Shown here: positions 1 to 57,727 of the stretch, piece after piece
How the letters are laid out: every line of letters starts with the position of its first letter
Numbering within the stretch: the stretch's first letter is position 1
IMG/VR virus record: IMGVR_UViG_3300045120_000343
Coordinates: 1-57,727 of that record
Source: a virus
Lineage: Duplodnaviria > Caudoviricetes
DNA: 57,727 nucleotides
Reading direction: 5' to 3' (one strand)
Notes under the pieces: model-generated
The model's input: the letters and a program-made list of their open reading frames with translations, nothing else
The model's database searches: none
What the model was told of the DNA's origin: nothing
Position numbers and translations under genes: made by a program

Positions 1-127
1 GGGCCTAAAAGCGCCTGGAATGGCATCTGAATACTTTGCCCGCCCTCGCCGGCGTCGCTGACGTTTCCGTCGCCGAACTTGAGGCGGGGCAGATAAATGG
101 AGACGGCAGGCGTCGGCTGCACAGTTT
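1..127. repeat. Terminal direct repeat, copy 1 (assembly overlap indicating a circular contig)
   Basis: Bases 1-127 are identical to 57601-57727, and the tail tube ORF reads through the junction in frame. Confidence 0.95.
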
Positions 128-3762: not shown

Positions 3763-3930
3763 TCAACTAAGGTTAGGTCGCCGGCCGAAGCCGACGCCAA
3801 TCACCCGCGTATTTTTTGGGGCGCCGTTTTCGTCTTCGTCATAATAATAAGTTGTCCACATGACGAGCCCAAACGGCCGCAGCAGTCTATCGACGAAAAG
3901 GGCGATCGGCGCCCAAGTCTTTGGGCTCAT
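3763..3930 (-). CDS. Hypothetical 55-aa protein
   Basis: ATG overlaps the FkbM-like gene stop; MSPKTWAPIALFVDRLL...; below the ORF-track cutoff. Confidence 0.4.
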   Translation of the reverse strand: MSPKTWAPIALFVDRLLRPFGLVMWTTYYYDEDENGAPKNTRVIGVGFGRRPNLS

Positions 3931-4532
3931 GACGCTACACGATCCAGCAGTCTATGCAACGGACGCTTCACAAAGATCATATTGCAAGTATTGCGATGCA
4001 CCCGCGTGTAGAACTTTCCTGATCCGAGACGATTGATTGTCAGTTCGCCGGCTTGTCCTGGGCCGCCTAGCGTTGGCAGCGCGTCATCGTCCGCATTTTG
4101 ATCAAACTCTATGACCACGACGCGCGGACGATACTGCAATAACGAATTCCATAGATAATAATCCTGACCATCTACGTCGATCACAGCAAGGTCTATATCG
4201 AGTGGAGCGCCGCAACGATAAAGAGTGCTCTCAAGCCGATGTGCATCCTCCACGGTTTGGTGCACGCAATGCACACGTTCTCCAAAAGCCTTGCTATTCT
4301 CCAACAAACGAACAAATGATGACTGAGCGGCCTCTATAAGCACGCCACTCCAGCCCTGTTCGAGAAGCCGTCGCGTATTGCTGAAGAAAAGGCCATCAGA
4401 TGCACCGCATTCGAAGCACCACTCGTTCTCCATTCCGATCACGGAGAAGATCGCCTGAAGAACGCCGTCTTCGCCGAATTGACTGTAGGAATTGAAGGCG
4501 AAATCATCGAGCCAGTCGAAACTCACTGCCAA
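3927..4532 (-). CDS. FkbM-like SAM-dependent methyltransferase
   Basis: YSQFGEDGVL, ECGASDG...SNTRRL...GWSGVLIE, IDLAVIDVDGQDYYLW, RPRVVVIEF motifs. Confidence 0.8.
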   Translation of the reverse strand: MAVSFDWLDDFAFNSYSQFGEDGVLQAIFSVIGMENEWCFECGASDGLFFSNTRRLLEQGWSGVLIEAAQSSFVRLLENSKAFGERVHCVHQTVEDAHRLESTLYRCGAPLDIDLAVIDVDGQDYYLWNSLLQYRPRVVVIEFDQNADDDALPTLGGPGQAGELTINRLGSGKFYTRVHRNTCNMIFVKRPLHRLLDRVAS

Positions 4533-5698
4533 GCTCCATCCGGAGCCTTCCCCGTTTCGTTAAACTCCCGCATCGGTTGGAAGACAGCCTGCAAATCAGC
4601 GCCCGGCCACCTCACCATCAATTCGGCATGGCCGATTGTGACTCGATTGGCGAGAAACAGCGTGTTACCGGCGAGATTCCATTTCCTCCAAAAATTGACG
4701 TCCTCGTCAATTTTCTTGTCGTCGGCCCATCCACCATCCTCGTCAGGGACGGAATGGAACCAGGGCTTAGGCAAACTCCGCAATTTGTCCGCGCGGATCA
4801 GCGTGAGCCCGAAATGCGCGGTCGCGATCTTCGTCAGATCGGGACTCATCAGCTCAAGCGGTATCCGCCCGAGCGCCTTGCCGTCCTCGTCCAGAACGGT
4901 GAATAGCGCAGTGGGGAGATGCCTTGATGATTGCAATGCTGCGATGGCGTCCGCCTCCGGGTGCGCCATCATCAGCTCGATCAGGCGGGCGACATTGGTC
5001 TTGGTAAAAATTGTGTCGTAGTCGAGCGTGAGGATCGCGTCCGGCTGGTCCTTCTCGAGGATCATCTCCAGACACTTCGTCAACGCCTGGCCCCAGAAGG
5101 CGCCGCCCTGCCGCCGAAGCCTTATCCCGAGCGGGACGAGCGCGTCGAAGCAGCAGCCGAAGTTGTCCATGAACGCTAGGCGCGGGACGCTCATCGACGC
5201 CGACACTTTCATCTCCGAAACGGCCGGCTTGGTTCCTTCAATGTTGAGCGAGACGTCATAGCTCGCGCAGTCCTCAAGTTCAGACTTCCACGGCCGCAGC
5301 AGCACGAGGCCAGCCACTGCAAGTCGCTGCCGCAAATGTTCGCGATCAAAAAGAGACTTGTGAAAATCGCTCGCGTCGGTCTGCGATCCCATGACGAACC
5401 ACTCGGCGGGCGCATCCATCAGCTTCCCGTCGAGATAACGCTTCGCCAGCTCCTCGAAGTCCGGGACCGCGATCCTCAGAATGCCTCCGGGTTTGAGCAC
5501 CCGGACCCACTCTTTGAGCACGGCCTCGATCTGCCCGTGCGGGAAATGCTCGATGACGTGGCTTGCCCTGACGACGTCGACCGAATTATCGTCATAAGAG
5601 AGCGGAAAGATTTCAGTCCCATGGTCGTGGCCGAGCGGGATATATCCTTCGGGCGATTGCACACCGGCGCCGAGATCAAGTTTTATGCTGTCGGTCAT
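4523..5698 (-). CDS. Class I methyltransferase fused to a GT-A (GT2-like) glycosyltransferase domain
   Basis: N-terminal KLDLGAG, ASHVIEH, EWVRVLKPGGILRIAVPD; C-terminal ILTLDYD (DxD), HFGLTLI, KPWF, DEDVNFW, IGH. Start at 5698 follows GAGG. Confidence 0.8.
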   Translation of the reverse strand: MTDSIKLDLGAGVQSPEGYIPLGHDHGTEIFPLSYDDNSVDVVRASHVIEHFPHGQIEAVLKEWVRVLKPGGILRIAVPDFEELAKRYLDGKLMDAPAEWFVMGSQTDASDFHKSLFDREHLRQRLAVAGLVLLRPWKSELEDCASYDVSLNIEGTKPAVSEMKVSASMSVPRLAFMDNFGCCFDALVPLGIRLRRQGGAFWGQALTKCLEMILEKDQPDAILTLDYDTIFTKTNVARLIELMMAHPEADAIAALQSSRHLPTALFTVLDEDGKALGRIPLELMSPDLTKIATAHFGLTLIRADKLRSLPKPWFHSVPDEDGGWADDKKIDEDVNFWRKWNLAGNTLFLANRVTIGHAELMVRWPGADLQAVFQPMREFNETGKAPDGAWQ

Positions 5699-5702
5699 GT
5701 AG

Positions 5703-5781
5703 GCCTCTGTCGGGAGGCGCGTGCGGAGACCGACATCTCCGCACGCTGTTCTGCGCAGACATTCCATCCGGTGTCGGCCGG
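5703..5781 (-). promoter_or_regulatory. Three-hairpin leader with CCGACA/UGUCGG loops, Shine-Dalgarno in the last stem
   Basis: mRNA order: CCGG-CCGACA-CCGG; 11-bp stem with UGUCGG loop; GCCUC-CCGACA-GAGGC then CUAC-AUG. Confidence 0.6.
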
Positions 5782-5792
5782 GAGGGGGGACT

Positions 5793-6116
5793 TCAGTTGT
5801 GTTGGGCGGCCTTGGCTTGTTCGACTTTTGCCGTCTTCGCAGCATCCGCGGCTGCCTTCTCGGCAGCGGCTACAGCGGCCTTCTCAGCGGCCTCTGCTTC
5901 TTCCGCGACCTTGGCCTCTTCGGCGAGCCGCACTTCCGCTCGATCCATAGCGGCCGGAAGCTCGACCGCGGCAGCCACCGCAACGTCGGCGAGTTTCGAG
6001 AGATGCTCGCCGGACGCATCGTCGAGATCGCGCATCGCTGCGATCCGCGCCCCCATTATGGCCCCGCCGACATGGATCACTGCATTGCGATCCATCTCCT
6101 TCTTCTTCGTCGTCAT
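5793..6116 (-). CDS. Hypothetical Ala/Glu/Lys-rich helical protein
   Basis: Open frame in the head operon with an AEK-rich low-complexity C-terminus. Confidence 0.55.
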   Translation of the reverse strand: MTTKKKEMDRNAVIHVGGAIMGARIAAMRDLDDASGEHLSKLADVAVAAAVELPAAMDRAEVRLAEEAKVAEEAEAAEKAAVAAAEKAAADAAKTAKVEQAKAAQHN

Positions 6117-6162
6117 AGCGTTTTGCCTTTCCGATTAGATTTGTGAATGGATCGAGACCCGC

Positions 6163-6624
6163 CTAGCCTTCGATCAGGCTGAGCACGTTAGCCCTGGCCG
6201 CGGTCGATATGCCTTGCTCCGGCCTGCCGAGGTTCGCATTCGCGAAGAACGTCTGCGAGGTCGCCGGCGATATCACGAGCGACAGGTACCGCTTGCGAGC
6301 GCGACAATCGACGTTGAACTTGTAGGAAGGCACCGCCGTGAGCGTGGTCGAAAAGCCCACGAGGAAATCGACGTTAGTGGCAGTCGCCGATCCCCCACGA
6401 AAACCTACGATGTCCACGAAGTTCGACGCCGTGGTGTTGTCGCTCTCCTGTAACTTCAACACGGACGGACTGCCGGCTTGGGTAGACGCCGCTTGCGTAG
6501 TCCCCCAAATGTCGATCGAAGCCCAATCAAAGCCAAGGGTATCGATGACAGATGATGTAACAGTTCCAGCAGCGGTCGCGGACGAGCCGTTGATGGCAGT
6601 AACAGCTTTGAATGCAGGCAACAT
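6163..6624 (-). CDS. Capsid decoration/cement protein (putative)
   Basis: Immediately after the capsid gene, AGGAG SD; IDTLGF...LKLQESD...KRYL pattern. Confidence 0.6.
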   Translation of the reverse strand: MLPAFKAVTAINGSSATAAGTVTSSVIDTLGFDWASIDIWGTTQAASTQAGSPSVLKLQESDNTTASNFVDIVGFRGGSATATNVDFLVGFSTTLTAVPSYKFNVDCRARKRYLSLVISPATSQTFFANANLGRPEQGISTAARANVLSLIEG

Positions 6625-6673
6625 GGCGTTGCTCCTTTTGCGATCCCGGACCAGCCGGATAAATGAGACTGAA

Positions 6674-6703
6674 GGCATCGCCGTCCTGGTTGGCGGCGAT
6701 GCC
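6674..6703 (-). terminator. Hairpin after the major capsid gene (attenuator/stabiliser)
   Basis: 10-bp inverted repeat GGCATCGCCG/CGGCGATGCC with a weak U-tail. Confidence 0.5.
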
Positions 6704-6719
6704 GTTACGGGGTTGAGGT

Positions 6720-8051
6720 TTAGGTGGTCCCGACTAGACCGACGATCGGGCCGGCGTTCGTATTGTCACCGAGATCGTGATTAACGATGTCGATGCGCTC
6801 CGTCCCAAGGATGCCGATCTGATCCAGTTCGAAATACCGTTCCTCTGATCGGCGGATCGTTGCGATGCGCCGTTCGCCCATGGCCGCCGCCATTGCCAGA
6901 TTGCCGAACAGGATCATGACCAGGCCGTTGAGCGTGGTGCTGATAACCGGAAGCTTCTGGCTGATGACGATCGGAAAGCCGAGGTAACGATACTGGATCG
7001 AACCGTCGAGCGTGGAGATGCTATTGCCGCCGGCCGTCGCGATTAGCCGTTCGAAACAAGTTCCGAATGCTAATGCCGAGCAATAGAACTTGGCTTGCGC
7101 AAGGGCATATTGTGGCAGCGTCCCGATCAGCTTGGTCAGGTCCGTGTTGTCGAGCAGCGCGAAGGTCGGATGACCAGAGGCCGCAGCGACCTTGCCGGCG
7201 TTGTGGTTACCGTCGATGAGCAAATTCGTGAGGCCACGAATGCCGCCGAATGTCGATGAGCCGTCACCGTTGAAGCCGCAATCGTCCTCCTTCGAGACGA
7301 AGGCATAGGCTATTTCCGCCGTCATCAGGTCGGCGACGCTCATCAGTGCATCTTCCGACAACTCCGTCGAGATGCGGGTCAATGCAGCGAGTTTCTTGGC
7401 GACCAGATTGACATTGTCCCAGGAGGCTGTCGACTCTGTCACCGCCGTGCCTTCAGAGATGAAGTTTGCCGTTAAGCCGCCGGTGCGCCGTGGCCAGGCC
7501 AAGGTATCACTCGACATCGGGACGATCTGAGCGTTCGCCCGGAACACGCCGAATTGCTCGCGAAGGTCGATGATGGCATTGAGCATCGGCGTCGGCACCA
7601 GAAAGCCGCCGGCCGTATTGATGCCCTCCGATTCTGCCTTCGTCACAACGTCATCATCAATGACACCATTGTCGTGGCACCATTGGCGCGCGTCGCTGTT
7701 GCCAAAGACAAATCCCTTTACCCACTTCCCGCACTTATAGGCGTTCTCCTCTGCGTCCTCGCCTCGGAACGCCTTGAGCTTGGCGTAACGCTTGCGCGGT
7801 TGCGCGAACACGCGATTGCCGCTGCCATTGGTGTCGTGCGGCTTGGATATGCTGAGCTTGTAGGAAGCCACCTTCTCGGTCTGATCTATCTTGGCCTTAA
7901 GATCAGCCGTTTCCTTTTCGAGTTCGGCGAACGCGAGCTCGTGTGTTTTGTCGGGAACGTAATCGTCGGCGCTCATCTTTTGATTGATTGCCACCAACGC
8001 CTCAATCTTCTCCGCGTGCTTGGCGCGAAGCTCGGCAAGTCTCTCCGTCAT
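6720..8051 (-). CDS. HK97-fold major capsid protein with N-terminal delta domain
   Basis: Coiled-coil N-terminus, GGFLVP, EG...TES, KKLAALTRISTELSED, LGFPIV, ILFGN motifs. Confidence 0.95.
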   Translation of the reverse strand: MTERLAELRAKHAEKIEALVAINQKMSADDYVPDKTHELAFAELEKETADLKAKIDQTEKVASYKLSISKPHDTNGSGNRVFAQPRKRYAKLKAFRGEDAEENAYKCGKWVKGFVFGNSDARQWCHDNGVIDDDVVTKAESEGINTAGGFLVPTPMLNAIIDLREQFGVFRANAQIVPMSSDTLAWPRRTGGLTANFISEGTAVTESTASWDNVNLVAKKLAALTRISTELSEDALMSVADLMTAEIAYAFVSKEDDCGFNGDGSSTFGGIRGLTNLLIDGNHNAGKVAAASGHPTFALLDNTDLTKLIGTLPQYALAQAKFYCSALAFGTCFERLIATAGGNSISTLDGSIQYRYLGFPIVISQKLPVISTTLNGLVMILFGNLAMAAAMGERRIATIRRSEERYFELDQIGILGTERIDIVNHDLGDNTNAGPIVGLVGTT

Positions 8052-8149
8052 TTGATTTGGCTTTGCAGACGTGGACTGACGCCATGTCAGTCCGGTCGCC
8101 CGGCACTGTCGGGTCCGGGGTTGTCAGAGAAACTTCTGTCGGAAGCCCC

Positions 8150-9100
8150 TCAGCCAGAATGCTTGAGTAGTTCTATCTTTTCTTCGCGCAACAGACGCTC
8201 GCGAGCGCGTTGCTCGTCGAGGCGCTTTTGCTTGGCAGCGCGCTCGATGGATTCAACGCGCGACTGATCCACGATCACCTTGCCGGATTTGGCGAGCTCG
8301 CGCTCGGCAAAATCGAATAGGATTTTTTTATCCAGGCCCGATAAATAATTCAGCGTTTCGCTGCTGGCGATCGGAGGTTCGCTTTCATTTTCCTCGTCGG
8401 CCGTCTCATGCGCGAGAATGCGGTAGGCTTTTTCAAATTCGGCCCGCGGCATCAGCACGCCTTCCGGCGAGCGCTGCCAGTTGTCGAGTACGTCCTCGAG
8501 CCATTCCTTCGCGAGACCACGATCGCCGTTAAATGCTTTGGCGAGAGCGTCCTGGTTCGCCGGAATTGCACACAGACTACATTCGAGGATCTTTGCGGCG
8601 TTGAATTGCAGACCGCCTGTCCACGACCCATCCTCATCCAACATCATCTCGATCTGATCGAAATCAGGAATAAAACCGATCGACGCGCCCCTGACGTATC
8701 CGTTCTCAGCGTACCACGCCGCGGTGTCTACCTCGGGATTTGGTCCACCAGCCTTCAGAAAGGAGAGATCGCCTTCCATTCGCGGCGGCCTGGTGCGCAA
8801 CATCTTCTCGACGTTCTTCCAGGTGCCGATCGGCCAGGTGTCCGAGCGATGGCTCATCAGCGCGATCGGATTTTGTTCAAACTCGGTAATATCGAGGCCG
8901 GCGGTGACAACCACATCGCCCATTCGGTCGACCGATTGCGAGGACATCACAAATCGAGCCGAACGAGATCCCGAATCCCAGGTCGACGGTCCCTTCGCGG
9001 CCTTCATCATCAACTCAGATCCATCGGCGCCCTGCCGCATTTGGTCCTTGCGCAACTCATGGGCCTCATCGGCGGAAATGCGCTTCGTTCGCATGGGCAA
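8150..9100 (-). CDS. HK97-family prohead protease
   Basis: SSQSVDRMGDVV, NPIALMSH, PIG, GASIGF, ILECSLCAIPANQDAL. Confidence 0.9.
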   Translation of the reverse strand: MPMRTKRISADEAHELRKDQMRQGADGSELMMKAAKGPSTWDSGSRSARFVMSSQSVDRMGDVVVTAGLDITEFEQNPIALMSHRSDTWPIGTWKNVEKMLRTRPPRMEGDLSFLKAGGPNPEVDTAAWYAENGYVRGASIGFIPDFDQIEMMLDEDGSWTGGLQFNAAKILECSLCAIPANQDALAKAFNGDRGLAKEWLEDVLDNWQRSPEGVLMPRAEFEKAYRILAHETADEENESEPPIASSETLNYLSGLDKKILFDFAERELAKSGKVIVDQSRVESIERAAKQKRLDEQRARERLLREEKIELLKHSG

Positions 9101-9104
9101 TTCC

Positions 9105-10499
9105 TCACTCTTCGGCATGACCCGAGCCATTGCCGTTAGCGTGGCGCTTTTCAAAAGGCGATGGCAGCACCACGTCGTCCGATTCCTCGCGCGCCACTAA
9201 TTCCATTGCCAACTTGAGCAACGCCTTCGCGCTCGCCGGCGGAAGATTGTCGGGATTGGGATTCGGATTTGAATTCGGCTGCGGTGGAGCTGGGAACGTC
9301 CCGGCGGGCGCCATATTCAGAGGCTGTAAATAAACGTCGCCATCTGGATAATGATTTCGATTTTCCAGCTCGCGAATTTCATTCGCATTCAAGATGCCCC
9401 AGTTACGCGCGACGGCGTAGGCATCATATCGGCTCTTCGTGTCTCCTTTGAGCAGAGCATCAGGCAAAAACTCGAAAAAATATTGCTGTTGTTCTTGCTC
9501 AGTCAGAAGATCGCGGCCGAGTGTCTGCTCCCAGCGCCGAAACTCAGTCATGAGGCAGTCGGTGACGTACTCAAGCGACTGCATTTCGATGTTGCTGTAG
9601 GTCGAGCGCTCCAGGTCACCGACCTTATGCGCTGGAACGCGATAGATACGCCATATCTCCTGGTTCTGCATCTTGCGGGTATTGATGTATTCGGCATCGA
9701 CGTTAGTTAGGCCGGTCGCGACCCAATCCATGCCGCCGTCAAAGATCGCGATCCGGTGCGAGTTCTCGACGCCGCGGTACTTACGCTCCCAATCCTCGCG
9801 AAGCTTTTTCGCCGTAGCCTCGTCGACTACACCCGGCAGTTTCACCGCACCGCGCGGTTGCGCGGAATTGCCGAAGAACGCGGCGCCATATTTCTCCGCC
9901 GCGACAGCGAGCCCGATCGTCTCGCGATGATGCGCAATCGGCGATAGACCCACGATGCCGTCGAGCGAGATGCCGCGCAGATGCATAACGGCATCGGCCG
10001 GAAGCGTCTCGACCGCGCCATAGGGACGGGTAATCCGATAAAATACATCCTGCCAGTCCGGCGTAACGAAGACTTGCACCCATTTCCATGGGATTGGCCA
10101 TAGCGCAGTGACGCGCCCGCGCAAGTCAAAATCTTTCAATGCGAGCGCATTGCCGCGCAAATCTAACTCCGCCTGCATCATCTGGCGGAAATCGAATGCC
10201 GTCATCCGCGGATTGGGCGCGAGATTGATCAAGTTGTAGAGTGCGTGATCGGTCGCCCGCTCCTTGCCTCCATCGGGCAAGCGCCGATAAAGCAAACATG
10301 GAATTTTGGCGACGTCTTCCGATCGGACGCGTATGCATGCCCACACGGCCGCGAGCCGCATGGCCGATTCCGGCGTGACCGCGATGCCGGACAACGTCGG
10401 CTCGCCGCCGTGAATCCAATCGACAAACCAGCTTGACGGATTGGTCGACGTGCTCGTGTCCTTGCGCCGCCACGGCAAAATGCGGTCAAGGAAGCCCAT
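9105..10499 (-). CDS. HK97-family portal protein
   Basis: AVWACIRVRSEDVAKIP, NPRMTAFDF, RGNA, GIVGLSPI, YSNIEMQ, LNANEIRELEN. Confidence 0.95.
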   Translation of the reverse strand: MGFLDRILPWRRKDTSTSTNPSSWFVDWIHGGEPTLSGIAVTPESAMRLAAVWACIRVRSEDVAKIPCLLYRRLPDGGKERATDHALYNLINLAPNPRMTAFDFRQMMQAELDLRGNALALKDFDLRGRVTALWPIPWKWVQVFVTPDWQDVFYRITRPYGAVETLPADAVMHLRGISLDGIVGLSPIAHHRETIGLAVAAEKYGAAFFGNSAQPRGAVKLPGVVDEATAKKLREDWERKYRGVENSHRIAIFDGGMDWVATGLTNVDAEYINTRKMQNQEIWRIYRVPAHKVGDLERSTYSNIEMQSLEYVTDCLMTEFRRWEQTLGRDLLTEQEQQQYFFEFLPDALLKGDTKSRYDAYAVARNWGILNANEIRELENRNHYPDGDVYLQPLNMAPAGTFPAPPQPNSNPNPNPDNLPPASAKALLKLAMELVAREESDDVVLPSPFEKRHANGNGSGHAEE

Positions 10500-33392: not shown

Positions 33393-33436
33393 GTCACAGC
33401 TCTCGCTGCGACCTCGTTGGCGGACTAGCCGCCGAA

Positions 33437-34297
33437 TTATCCGCCTTGCGGCACGCCATTTTGCTTCACCTTCCGACTAAGGCTGATGAAGGTGAAGATT
33501 ACGCCAATGGCTAAGAGCGCGAGCCCTCCTATCGCGATCATGATGGCCCATGTGGCGCTGCTGCCTGCACCAACCCCCGCGCTGTCGGCCTGTTGTCTCA
33601 CAAGCACCCTCACCTGCTCCGCAATGGCAGCCACTGCCGGATCGCTGAACTTGCGCTCGCCGACGCCCTGCGCACTGCCCTGTTCAAGAGACTGAACGCG
33701 CGTTCCGATAGCAGTGACGGTTTGCCCGAGCGTAGTGAACTGATTCTGAATGTTGCGATTGGTCTCGGTCGCCGTCGAGGCAACCAAGCTTCTGAGCGCA
33801 TCCGCAGTGGTCGTGTTTTGAGTCGAAAGAACAGCCGCCGACTCGGTCACTGTCTTTGCAAGACCGGCCGCTGTCTGGATGGCTGCCGAGCTAGTCTGAT
33901 CGACTGCCGCCTTGTCCACCTGCCTGATAGCGTCAACGCGCGCCTTCTCCGTGTCTCGGATCAATTTATCGAACTCTGCACGGAGTCGTGCCTCAGCCTC
34001 CAACCGCTCCGTGTTGGCCTGAAGCAATTCCCGATCATGCTGCGACCGAAGTGCACTAAGTTCAGCAACGAGCTTCAACCTTGCGTCTGTGCTTTCTTGC
34101 AACGCAGCACGCAGATCGTCCTGGCGCTTGATGGCGGCTTCCACGAGCTGCAGGACATTCTTCGATGGGTCGAATGGCAACGCACCGGTCACCATTTGCC
34201 CGCCCGAGCTGACCCCCAATGAAGGATTGTCGGGCGCCGACTGCGCCCACGTCGGCACAGCGAGGATGAGAAAGATCAAAACCAATAAATTGCGCAT
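33437..34297 (-). CDS. Secreted coiled-coil protein with C-terminal TM anchor (last late gene)
   Basis: Signal peptide MRNLLVLIFLILAVPTWA, long helical body, TM WAIMIAIGGLALLAIGVIFTFISL. Confidence 0.65.
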   Translation of the reverse strand: MRNLLVLIFLILAVPTWAQSAPDNPSLGVSSGGQMVTGALPFDPSKNVLQLVEAAIKRQDDLRAALQESTDARLKLVAELSALRSQHDRELLQANTERLEAEARLRAEFDKLIRDTEKARVDAIRQVDKAAVDQTSSAAIQTAAGLAKTVTESAAVLSTQNTTTADALRSLVASTATETNRNIQNQFTTLGQTVTAIGTRVQSLEQGSAQGVGERKFSDPAVAAIAEQVRVLVRQQADSAGVGAGSSATWAIMIAIGGLALLAIGVIFTFISLSRKVKQNGVPQGG

Positions 34298-57082: not shown

Positions 57083-57483
57083 GCGGCGTTACTCACGAAC
57101 ACCCATGCTTGCCGCTGTAGCCAACCCATGCCTGGATCGGACCACAGGTCTCGCGCGTTCTCTTTTGAGAATGGCACGTCGATCGGTTCTCCTTCAAGAT
57201 CGACCAGATACCATTCTGTAGTGAGCGCCACGAGTTTGTCGATCTGGTCCTTTGTCAGATCCTCGCCATCCTGAAGATTGCGGCCCGAACGAAGCCTGCG
57301 AATGGTCTGAAAAGATTGGGCGCGATCGATCTTGCGGCCCGCCTCGCTATCGGCCGACAGGAACGAAACGAATGCCTCCTTGCCGCTCGAGTCCTTTAGT
57401 GGCGTGTCGGTTTTCGGACTGATTATCGGCATGTTGAACGCGCTCTCGACGTCGACCGAAAGCGCGGCGAATTTTCCTGTCAT
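57010..57483 (-). CDS. Tail assembly chaperone G
   Basis: Follows the tube gene; LSADSE, LVALTTEW, PFSKENA, C-terminal ANF slippery site. Confidence 0.8.
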   Translation of the reverse strand: MTGKFAALSVDVESAFNMPIISPKTDTPLKDSSGKEAFVSFLSADSEAGRKIDRAQSFQTIRRLRSGRNLQDGEDLTKDQIDKLVALTTEWYLVDLEGEPIDVPFSKENARDLWSDPGMGWLQRQAWVFVSNAANFIKGSSKNSSDSASTNSGINAP

Positions 57484-57539
57484 GTCGGTTCCTTTCCTCG
57501 TGTCGGCGAGGACATTATCTTGACAATGTCGAGACAATG

Positions 57540-57727
57540 TCAGACGGCCTCCGTGTCGACGATGCGGATTGTCGTGTTTTCGTCACCTGCCACTGTTCCT
57601 GGGCCTAAAAGCGCCTGGAATGGCATCTGAATACTTTGCCCGCCCTCGCCGGCGTCGCTGACGTTTCCGTCGCCGAACTTGAGGCGGGGCAGATAAATGG
57701 AGACGGCAGGCGTCGGCTGCACAGTTT
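57540..57727 (-). CDS. Major tail tube protein, 3' end
   Basis: IYLPRLKF...IQMPFQAL...TTIRI; contiguous with 1-1202 via the terminal overlap. Confidence 0.85.
   Translation of the reverse strand, partial: TVQPTPAVSIYLPRLKFGDGNVSDAGEGGQSIQMPFQALLGPGTVAGDENTTIRIVDTEAV
57601..57727. repeat. Terminal direct repeat, copy 2
   Basis: Identical to 1-127. Confidence 0.95.

What the first reader, a model, noticed from the sequence alone, without database searches (positions are those of the whole stretch)
5689..5781. Three-hairpin CCGACA/UGUCGG leader: possible kissing-loop translational switch
Seen: the mRNA leader of the methyltransferase-GT gene reads hairpin (loop CCGACA), perfect 11-bp hairpin (loop UGUCGG, the exact complement), then hairpin (loop CCGACA) whose 3' arm holds the SD GAGG 5 nt before AUG. 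A further CCGACA lies in codons 2-4. Inference: the central loop can pair with either flanking loop, giving alternative states that expose or hide the SD, or the loops bind a regulator protein.
Basis: partly seen in the sequence, partly recalled or inferred. Interest (0 to 1): 0.7.

Follow-up and report, generated by a model that had tools for sequence, protein, structure and literature searches.

The report
Phage mRNA leader with kissing hairpin loops

Summary

It is a conserved RNA family:
- 22 of 46 related phage loci with at least 50% MTase identity carry it directly upstream. A covariance model adds 9 more.
- 22 of 28 pairs show compensatory changes (0 of 500 shuffles).
- Rfam 15 has no match.

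In three type I contigs all three loops switch together and stay complementary: CCCACA/UGUGGG, CGCACA/UGUGCG, CCGGCA/UGCCGG. Sister elements before tail-chaperone genes use CCGCCA/UGGCGG and CCACCA/UGGUGG.

So loop-loop pairing is strongly supported. The "switch" is only inferred:
- The H2-H3 linker is 0-7 nt (0 here), so the folded H2 and H3 cannot kiss in cis. H1-H2 can.
- Two reciprocal cases suggest H2 acts at a distance. These are the window's tail-chaperone leader and contig G006's MTase leader.
- One fragment (L347) shows no complementary loop.

This is a new RNA family working by known principles. No RNA data were available.

The parts
5689..5801 (-). Whole element as matched by the covariance model built from 20 homologous leaders
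   Evidence: 75.2 bits, E 2.3e-23, model positions 1-117 of 117. It is the only full hit in the 57.7-kb genome.
5768..5781 (-). H1: 4-bp stem with hexaloop CCGACA (loop 5772-5777 on the + strand)
   Evidence: It is homologous to the 4-9-bp H1 of relatives, with stem covariation.
5750..5759 (-). H1b: perfect 10-nt palindrome with a GCGC centre (small hairpin or self-duplex site)
   Evidence: 25 of 33 elements have a perfect palindrome of at least 10 nt here, of differing sequence. Shuffled linkers give a mean of 0.42 and a maximum of 3.
5719..5746 (-). H2: perfect 11-bp stem with hexaloop UGUCGG (loop 5730-5735), the complement of the H1 and H3 loops
   Evidence: The stem is 9-14 bp in 29 elements. 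10 of its 11 stem pairs show both-side changes.
5703..5718 (-). H3: 5-bp stem with hexaloop CCGACA (loop 5708-5713). The 3' arm is the SD GAGG (+ strand 5704-5707). It abuts H2 with no linker.
   Evidence: All 4 of its stem pairs covary.
5689..5698 (-). AUG of the methyltransferase-glycosyltransferase gene (5696-5698), followed by a fourth, unstructured CCGACA (5689-5694)
   Evidence: A CCGACA beside the AUG recurs in L001, L120, L130, L141, L010 and L023.
4523..5698 (-). Downstream gene: class I SAM methyltransferase fused to a GT-2-like glycosyltransferase (391 aa)
   Evidence: Pfam Methyltransf_11 3.7e-9; Glyco_trans_2_3 weak; PHROG methyltransferase.
5793..6116 (-). Upstream 107-aa Ala-rich gene with no family match. 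It is absent at this place in most relatives.
   Evidence: In relatives the element usually follows the homologue of the 171-aa gene directly.
6163..6678 (-). 171-aa head-module gene (PHROG 5707, function unknown). In 25 of 29 close relatives its homologue is followed by the element within the 1.2-kb flank, mostly directly.
   Evidence: (67% identity to L128:903-1370).
57495..57512 (-). Satellite H3-type hairpin before the tail assembly chaperone gene: 6-bp stem, loop CCGACA (57501-57506), SD-like purines in and after the 3' arm
   Evidence: The gene is assigned by PHROG 313.
57481..57488 (-). CCGACA overlapping the AUG (57481-57483) of the tail assembly chaperone gene

Best explanation
The RNA folds into four hairpins, H1, H1b, H2 and H3.

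The hexaloop of the long central hairpin H2 base-pairs, as a kissing interaction, with identical hexaloops on H1 and on H3-type hairpins. The 3' arm of those H3-type hairpins is the Shine-Dalgarno sequence of the next gene.

I infer that this pairing tunes translation of a low-copy gene that follows an abundant structural gene. Here that gene is the methyltransferase-glycosyltransferase. At the sister site it is the tail assembly chaperone. Contact of H2 with an H3 loop, or with the CCGACA beside the AUG, would lock or occlude the ribosome-binding site. H1, the only partner H2 can reach in cis, would compete for H2.

Because folded H2 and H3 abut, the H2-H3 contact would have to be between molecules or over a long range on the polycistronic RNA.

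Shown: the conserved structure, the RNA strand, loop-loop complementarity kept through change, and the SD lying in H3.

Inferred: the effect on translation, its direction, and cis versus trans action.

The confidence given is for the whole statement. For the conserved RNA structure with loop-loop pairing alone I would put it near 0.85.
For: Structure and conservation:
- An exact UGUCGG hairpin flanked by CCGACA hairpins is present in 22 of 130 distinct upstream regions of MTase-GT homologues. All 22 are among the 46 with at least 50% identity.
- The covariance model finds 9 more of those 46, displaced or with other loops.
- RNAalifold on 20 sequences gives 26 pairs, 21 of them with compensatory changes.
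- On 33 sequences, 93.6% of cells are paired and 22 of 28 pairs change on both sides. 0 of 500 shuffles reach this, and slid controls give 36-45% paired.

RNA strand:
- The pair table shows 19 G.U against 2 A.C in stems.
- 29 elements give 31 G.U against 12 A.C.
- Sense hits score 57-108 bits; antisense hits score at most 51 bits.

Loop pairing:
- L137 has CCCACA/UGUGGG/CCCACA, L116 has CGCACA/UGUGCG/CGCACA, and L142 has CCGGCA/UGCCGG/CCGGCA.
- In a scan by structure alone, 34 of 35 hairpin triples with equal flanking loops were 6/6 complementary to the central loop.
- L230 pairs an H1 loop CCGGCA with UGUCGG through a G.U wobble.
- The H3 loop is 6/6 complementary in 31 of 33. The other 2 are parser failures (L137 is complementary by eye).

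Sister elements before tail-chaperone genes:
- L346 has CCACCA/UGGUGG/CCACCA.
- G004 has CCGCUA/UGGCGG/CCACCA, while the MTase leader of the same genome uses CCGACA/UGUCGG.

Action at a distance:
- The window's chaperone leader has only an H3 hairpin. Its loop is CCGACA, matching the genome's single H2, whereas three other chaperone leaders have CCGCCA or CCACCA in H3.
- Conversely, the MTase leader of G006 has no H2. Both of its loops are CCGCCA, matching the UGGCGG in its chaperone leader 18.7 kb away.

SD: the 3' arm of H3 is GAGG, AAGG, AGGG or GGAG, about 5-12 nt before the start codon. Duplex energies of the six loop pairs are -7.6 to -9.9 kcal/mol.
Against: - There is no expression, probing or reporter data.
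- The H2-H3 linker is 0-7 nt. By my geometric estimate, not a computation, the simple cis toggle between H1 and H3 is sterically implausible.
- L347 carries the sense motif in all three loops, and its 12.4-kb fragment holds no complementary hairpin.
- G005's chaperone-leader element shows only about 4 complementary bases.
- In G006 the UGGCGG apex is partly paired in the minimum-energy fold.
- Each alternative loop code of type I rests on a single contig.
- H1 loops of one sub-lineage are 7-8 nt and keep only CCGAC, giving 5 pairs.
- 15 of the 46 close MTase homologues show no element in the stretch fetched.
Confidence: 0.55

Rival explanations
1. Self-assembling RNA. The element mainly serves to join RNA molecules, with translation control secondary. 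The perfectly self-complementary H1b would form an intermolecular duplex. The H2-H3 rod carries complementary loops at its two ends and would kiss head to tail with other copies, giving dimers, rings or chains of late mRNA or of a processed fragment.
For: - H1b is a perfect palindrome of at least 10 nt in 25 of 33 elements, with at least four different centres (GCGC, CGCG, AGCU, GGCC). Shuffled linkers give a mean of 0.42 and a maximum of 3.
- One sub-lineage has a GUGC centre, which is self-complementary only as RNA, through G.U.
- H2 and H3 abut (linker 0-7 nt), so their complementary loops cannot meet within one molecule.
- The loops of leaders that lack an H2 match a distant H2.
Against: - Nothing here tests oligomerisation.
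- A tetraloop hairpin explains H1b equally well as a structure.
- The constant placement of the SD in H3, right before a start codon, points to translation.
- Eight of 33 elements lack a palindrome of at least 10 nt by my parser. At least one of these, the window, is a parsing failure.
Confidence: 0.15
2. mRNA processing or stability element. H1-H2 kissing builds a compact or quasi-continuous helix. This would act as a 3' barrier protecting the upstream abundant-gene mRNA, or as an RNase III or RNase E site that uncouples the decay of the two halves of the operon and so sets protein ratios.
For: - Both conserved positions lie directly after a gene for a head-module or tail protein and before a low-copy gene.
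- In more distant relatives (L349-L354) the same tail-protein/chaperone junction carries a canonical hairpin plus T-run terminator.
Against: - There is no T-run after H2, and the terminator scan finds nothing in the element.
- This reading does not explain why the H3 loop, or the CCGACA beside the AUG, must match H2.
- No RNA-end data exist.
Confidence: 0.15
3. Protein operator. A phage RNA-binding protein recognises the CCGACA-type loops next to ribosome-binding sites as a translational repressor, and H2 is an RNA decoy or anti-operator.
For: - Two-hairpin versions with two identical sense loops and no local H2 precede genes in L119, L138, L136 and L332.
- L347 has three sense-type loops and no antisense loop in 12.4 kb.
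Against: - Six different loop codes would each need a co-evolved protein.
- G004 carries two codes in one genome.
- A protein does not explain why H2 is always the exact complement.
- No candidate RNA-binding gene was identified.
Confidence: 0.08
4. Double-stranded DNA sites. The hexamers are operator half-sites in either orientation for a DNA-binding regulator of late transcription.
For: The hexamer occurs in both orientations and is clustered: 7 of 30 sense-strand copies fall in 260 nt of three leaders (Poisson 1.4e-10; leaders chosen post hoc).
Against: - The conserved bases lie in the spacers of inverted repeats whose arms covary. This is the reverse of a dimeric protein site.
- Spacing between sites varies, 22-27 and 42-51 nt start to start.
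- Wobble pairs are strand-biased.
- No sigma-70-like promoter is found there.
Confidence: 0.04

Closest known systems
Guanidine-II (mini-ykkC) riboswitch
   Same: Tandem hairpins whose conserved loops pair with each other, with translational control through an SD at the 3' hairpin. This description is recalled; the paper PMC10351892 was seen only as a search listing and abstract.
   Different: Guanidine-II loops are self-complementary ACGR tetraloops that bind a ligand. Here the loops are hetero-complementary hexaloops with six interchangeable codes, plus two further hairpins. The setting is a phage structural operon, and there is no sign of a ligand. Rfam gave no match.
   Same: A phage RNA whose two loops are complementary and covary between related phages, pairing between molecules (recalled knowledge; the PMC11975285 listing mentions a hexameric pRNA ring).
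   Different: pRNA is a free non-coding RNA bound to the portal for DNA packaging. This element is intercistronic, carries an SD, and shows no similarity to any Rfam model.
Six-nucleotide kissing complexes such as TAR-TAR* and ColE1 RNA I-RNA II; the HIV-1 dimerisation initiation site
   Same: Fully complementary hairpin loops that form a loop-loop helix, and a palindromic hairpin that can convert to an intermolecular duplex (recalled knowledge; the review PMC7357161 was seen as an abstract).
   Different: Those are antisense or replication-control and genome-dimerisation systems of plasmids and retroviruses, not phage mRNA leaders.
SD-sequestering leader hairpins and phage translational operators (T4 gene 32 pseudoknot, RegA sites)
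   Same: A structure at the ribosome-binding site of a phage gene that limits initiation. The gene 32 case is cited in PMC10690425 (passages seen).
   Different: Those are bound by proteins. Here the conserved partner is another RNA loop.
Intrinsic terminator after major structural genes
   Same: The same genomic position. Distant relatives carry a hairpin plus T-run at the tail-protein/chaperone junction.
   Different: There is no T-run, and the terminator scan does not report it. Loop sequence conservation is not a terminator feature.

Membership tests
Any Rfam 15 family | Match to a curated covariance model at or near its gathering score | tested here: not met
   (window 5300-6200, E up to 10): the best overlap was eL15-Euryarchaeota at 19.6 bits against a gathering score of 33.7; six relatives' loci gave 0 matches at E <= 0.1.
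Guanidine-II riboswitch | Two hairpins with ACGR tetraloops | tested here: not met
   The loops are CCGACA and UGUCGG hexaloops. There is no Rfam hit. The family definition is recalled.
Guanidine-II riboswitch | Association with guanidine export or carboxylase genes | tested here: not met
   The downstream genes are an MTase-GT, a gene starting MRAFITG, or a tail chaperone.
Intrinsic (Rho-independent) terminator | G+C-rich hairpin followed by a T-run | tested here: not met
   One search reports 4 terminator-like sites in 5400-8400 and none in 5689-5801. The sequence after H2 is H3, with no T-run.
The new family defined here (four-hairpin kissing-loop element, model R1) | H1, H1b, H2 and H3 in order, with covarying stems | tested here: met
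   (75.2 bits, full length).
The new family defined here | H2 hexaloop complementary to the H1 and H3 hexaloops | tested here: met
   for the window. for the family.
The new family defined here | SD of the downstream gene in the 3' arm of H3 | tested here: met
   GAGG lies 5 nt before the AUG. Relatives are shown.
The new family defined here | Loop-loop contact forms physically and changes expression | not testable with these tools
   No RNA run holds the sequence. No probing or reporter data exist.

The most novel reading that the evidence does not exclude
The hairpins form a programmable RNA addressing system. Each phage carries one or two hub hairpins (H2) whose hexaloop code (six codes seen) selects, in trans or over kilobases, all leader hairpins that display the complementary code. 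The palindromic H1b would help by pairing RNA molecules. Late mRNAs would then be physically linked and their low-copy genes co-regulated by RNA-RNA contacts alone, without a protein or a ligand.
Probability: 0.25. Interest if true: 0.85.

Novelty: new variant of a known kind. Interest (0 to 1): 0.72.

Why it matters
Natural kissing-loop regulators are few. Almost none are known in the mRNAs of tailed phages, where protein stoichiometry in the structural operon is usually put down to terminators, coupling and SD strength.

This family offers a clean natural series of loop codes that changed in concert. That is about as direct as comparative evidence for a tertiary RNA contact can be.

It also supplies ready-made orthogonal pairs for testing, or for engineering translation control.

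If the contacts act between molecules, this would be a small and tractable case of RNA-RNA assembly in phage infection. That topic was opened recently by large multimeric phage-associated RNAs (abstract of 10.1101/2024.12.08.627333, seen).

The element also flags the neighbouring methyltransferase-glycosyltransferase cassette as a regulated unit of the head module.

Tried and rejected
- BLASTN of 4500-8200 against the phage collection gave no match.
- Rfam gave nothing relevant.
- The terminator and promoter scan found nothing in the element.
- Sequencing runs: no RNA holder is listed, and the one DNA holder may be the source sample.
- Genome contigs held only partial cellular relatives covering the MTase half of the protein (at most query residues 4-208), so they gave no leaders.
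- The capsid leader (8052-8149) carries two CCGACA-type loops (z only -1.9). The capsid leaders of G001, G002, G003 and G006 do not carry their genome's code in hairpin loops. I treat it as unproven and leave it out of the parts.
- A weak model hit at 33402-33497 (8.6 bits, E 0.18) was not pursued.
- A degenerate second copy in L007/L132 (about 20 bits) has non-complementary loops and looks decayed.
- G007 is an 11-kb fragment. It has a two-hairpin element and no antisense-loop hairpin, so it is uninformative.
- The loop-independent H1b pattern search returned 60 stretches (48 distinct regions). Most were chance palindromes, and it gave only 1 loop variant beyond those known, L230.
- My first wobble count was contaminated by spurious hairpins and is replaced. 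The parser mis-assigned H1 in WIN, L001 and L003, and H3 in L137 and L003.
- Literature: three searches found no description of this element. PMC10690425 lists 10,006 candidate structured RNAs from IMG/VR. I saw passages only, and its supplementary tables are closed, so the motif may be catalogued there without a name.
- Not used: structure prediction, complex prediction, the protein atlas, the search for homologous proteins.

Full report
WHAT IS THERE

The window is a whole phage genome. Its ends are an exact 127-bp direct repeat. The genes around the finding run on the minus strand:
- prohead protease, 8150-9154
- major capsid protein, 6720-8051
- a 171-aa head-module protein, 6163-6678
- a 107-aa Ala-rich protein, 5793-6116
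- a SAM-methyltransferase/glycosyltransferase fusion, 4523-5698
- an FkbM-like methyltransferase, then the head-tail adaptor

- H1, 4 bp, loop CCGACA
- H2, a perfect 11 bp, loop UGUCGG
- H3, 5 bp, loop CCGACA, with GAGG in its 3' arm 5 nt before the AUG
- CCGACA again in codons 2-4

RNAfold returns these hairpins with z = -3.29. Of 58 copies of the hexamer in the genome, only four are exact hexaloops closed by at least 4 Watson-Crick pairs. Three of those are here.

IT IS A CONSERVED RNA

Homologues of the MTase-GT are common in viral and metagenome contigs. 403 of 454 candidate stretches were confirmed in viral contigs and 478 of 596 in metagenome contigs, with the best 80 kept in each case. 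Cellular genomes gave only partial matches covering the methyltransferase half.

I examined 130 distinct upstream regions. 22 have a long UGUCGG-loop hairpin flanked by CCGACA hairpins, and all 22 are among the 46 with at least 50% protein identity.

An alignment of 20 sequences gives 26 RNAalifold pairs, 21 of them with compensatory changes.

A covariance model, R1, scores the window element at 75.2 bits and finds no second full copy in the genome. In the relatives it recovers nine further elements. These are displaced by an inserted gene, lie after the MTase gene (L136), or carry other loops.

The element more often follows the homologue of the window's 171-aa gene, which is 67% identical. 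A sense-strand hit of at least 36 bits lies within the flank in 25 of the 29 loci whose homologue is at least 53% identical, mostly directly after the gene. The window has the extra 107-aa gene in between.

On 33 sequences, 93.6% of cells pair and 22 of 28 pairs change on both sides. 0 of 500 shuffles reach this, and slid controls give 36-45% paired.

Three observations point to the mRNA strand as the functional molecule:
- Wobble pairs are mostly G.U on the mRNA strand: 19 against 2 A.C, and 31 against 12.
- Antisense model scores are much lower.
- Arm covariation combined with conserved spacers is the opposite of a dimeric DNA site.

Rfam 15 has nothing.

THE LOOPS PAIR

Three type I contigs changed all three loops and kept them complementary:
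- L137: CCCACA / UGUGGG / CCCACA
- L116: CGCACA / UGUGCG / CGCACA
- L142: CCGGCA / UGCCGG / CCGGCA

A scan that used structure only asked for a long hairpin flanked by two hairpins with equal loops. It found 35 triples, of which 34 had flanking loops 6/6 complementary to the central loop.

L230 pairs an H1 loop CCGGCA with UGUCGG through a G.U wobble.

Counted as helices, H1-H2 and H2-H3 are 97.0% and 97.5% paired, each with two pairs changed on both sides.

Whole-genome scans of three relatives find their own code in hairpin loops essentially only in the element.

A SISTER ELEMENT AND ACTION AT A DISTANCE

The fourth hexaloop in the window, at 57501, sits before the tail assembly chaperone gene and after the tail protein that wraps the origin. 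It has a further CCGACA on the AUG.

In other phages that junction carries a full element of the same design but with other codes:
- L346: CCACCA / UGGUGG / CCACCA
- G004: CCGCUA / UGGCGG / CCACCA
- G006: CCGCCA / UGGCGG / CCGCCA

G004 therefore holds two elements with different codes, each internally matched. This argues for RNA-RNA pairing rather than one common protein.

Two reciprocal cases suggest the hub can act away from home:
- The window's chaperone leader has no H2, and its loop carries the code of the only H2 in the genome.
- The MTase leader of G006 has no H2, and both of its loops carry the code of the H2 in its chaperone leader 18.7 kb away.

Two-hairpin, H2-less versions also precede genes in L119, L138 and L136.

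WHAT DOES NOT FIT

- H2 and H3 abut, with a linker of 0 nt here and 0-7 nt in 29 elements. A 9-14-bp H2 puts its loop out of reach of a neighbouring 4-6-bp hairpin. This is my geometric estimate and is not computed. H1-H2, with a 15-29-nt linker, is feasible.
- L347 shows the sense motif in all three loops and no partner in its 12.4-kb fragment.
- G005 shows only partial complementarity.
- In G006 the apex is partly paired in the minimum-energy fold.
- The capsid-leader motifs of the window are not conserved in relatives.
- There are no RNA data.

H1b

In 25 of 33 elements the H1-H2 linker holds a perfect palindrome of 10-16 nt. The sequences differ, with centres GCGC, CGCG, AGCU and GGCC. Shuffled linkers give a mean of 0.42. 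One sub-lineage is self-complementary only as RNA. A plain tetraloop hairpin needs no self-complementary loop, so a self-duplex between two RNA molecules is a real possibility.

READING

I commit to a cis-regulatory RNA whose H2 loop kisses matching loops at ribosome-binding sites, with H1 as the competitor in cis. This would set the low translation of genes that follow abundant structural genes.

The structure and the loop pairing are well supported. The regulatory effect, its sign, and cis versus trans action are inferred.

The rivals are RNA self-assembly, a processing or stability element, a protein operator and DNA sites, in that order.

It works like guanidine-II and like other kissing-loop systems. 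It is a member of none of them.

PRIOR DESCRIPTION

My three literature searches found no description. A catalogue of 10,006 candidate viral RNAs may contain it, but its supplements could not be read.

Noticed in passing
window 1-127 and 57601-57727: The ends of the window are an exact 127-bp direct repeat, so the record is a circularly closed assembly of about 57.6 kb. A tail-protein ORF (start 1202, minus strand) runs across the junction and ends near 57541.
   Followed up: yes
window 3927-5698: The MTase-GT fusion has hundreds of phage and metagenome homologues. Cellular genomes gave only partial matches to its methyltransferase half. It sits in the head module after a Ser/Thr-rich 171-aa protein, which suggests virion glycosylation.
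   Followed up: partly
window 5750-5759 and the same position in 25 of 33 relatives: The small hairpin between H1 and H2 is a perfect palindrome of 10-16 nt with varying sequence, which suggests an RNA self-duplex site.
   Followed up: partly
window 8052-8149 (minus strand): The capsid leader has two hairpins with CCGACA or CGACA in the loop, plus an 8-bp hairpin. The motif is not conserved in the capsid leaders of four relatives.
   Followed up: partly
L349-L354, about 290-330: In more distant relatives the tail-protein/chaperone junction carries a classic hairpin plus T-run terminator, followed by a TTGAC-containing stretch, instead of the kissing-loop element.
   Followed up: no
window 33402-33497 (+): A weak model hit (8.6 bits) contains a CCUU/AAGG hairpin with loop CCGACU. 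It lies next to the region that another first-stage note calls an anti-SD sRNA.
   Followed up: no
G001, G002, G003 (loci L294-L302): Each relative gives two separate tblastn matches to the window's capsid protein, about 2.6 kb apart. This suggests a second capsid-like gene.
   Followed up: no
L007/L132 1080-1196: A decayed second copy of the element (about 20 bits) sits directly after the head-module gene, upstream of the intact copy, with loops no longer complementary.
   Followed up: partly
window 57520-57580: A run of ATGTC/TTGTC repeats lies at the end of the tail-protein gene and in the chaperone leader. Part of it forms a 9-bp hairpin in the fold.
   Followed up: no
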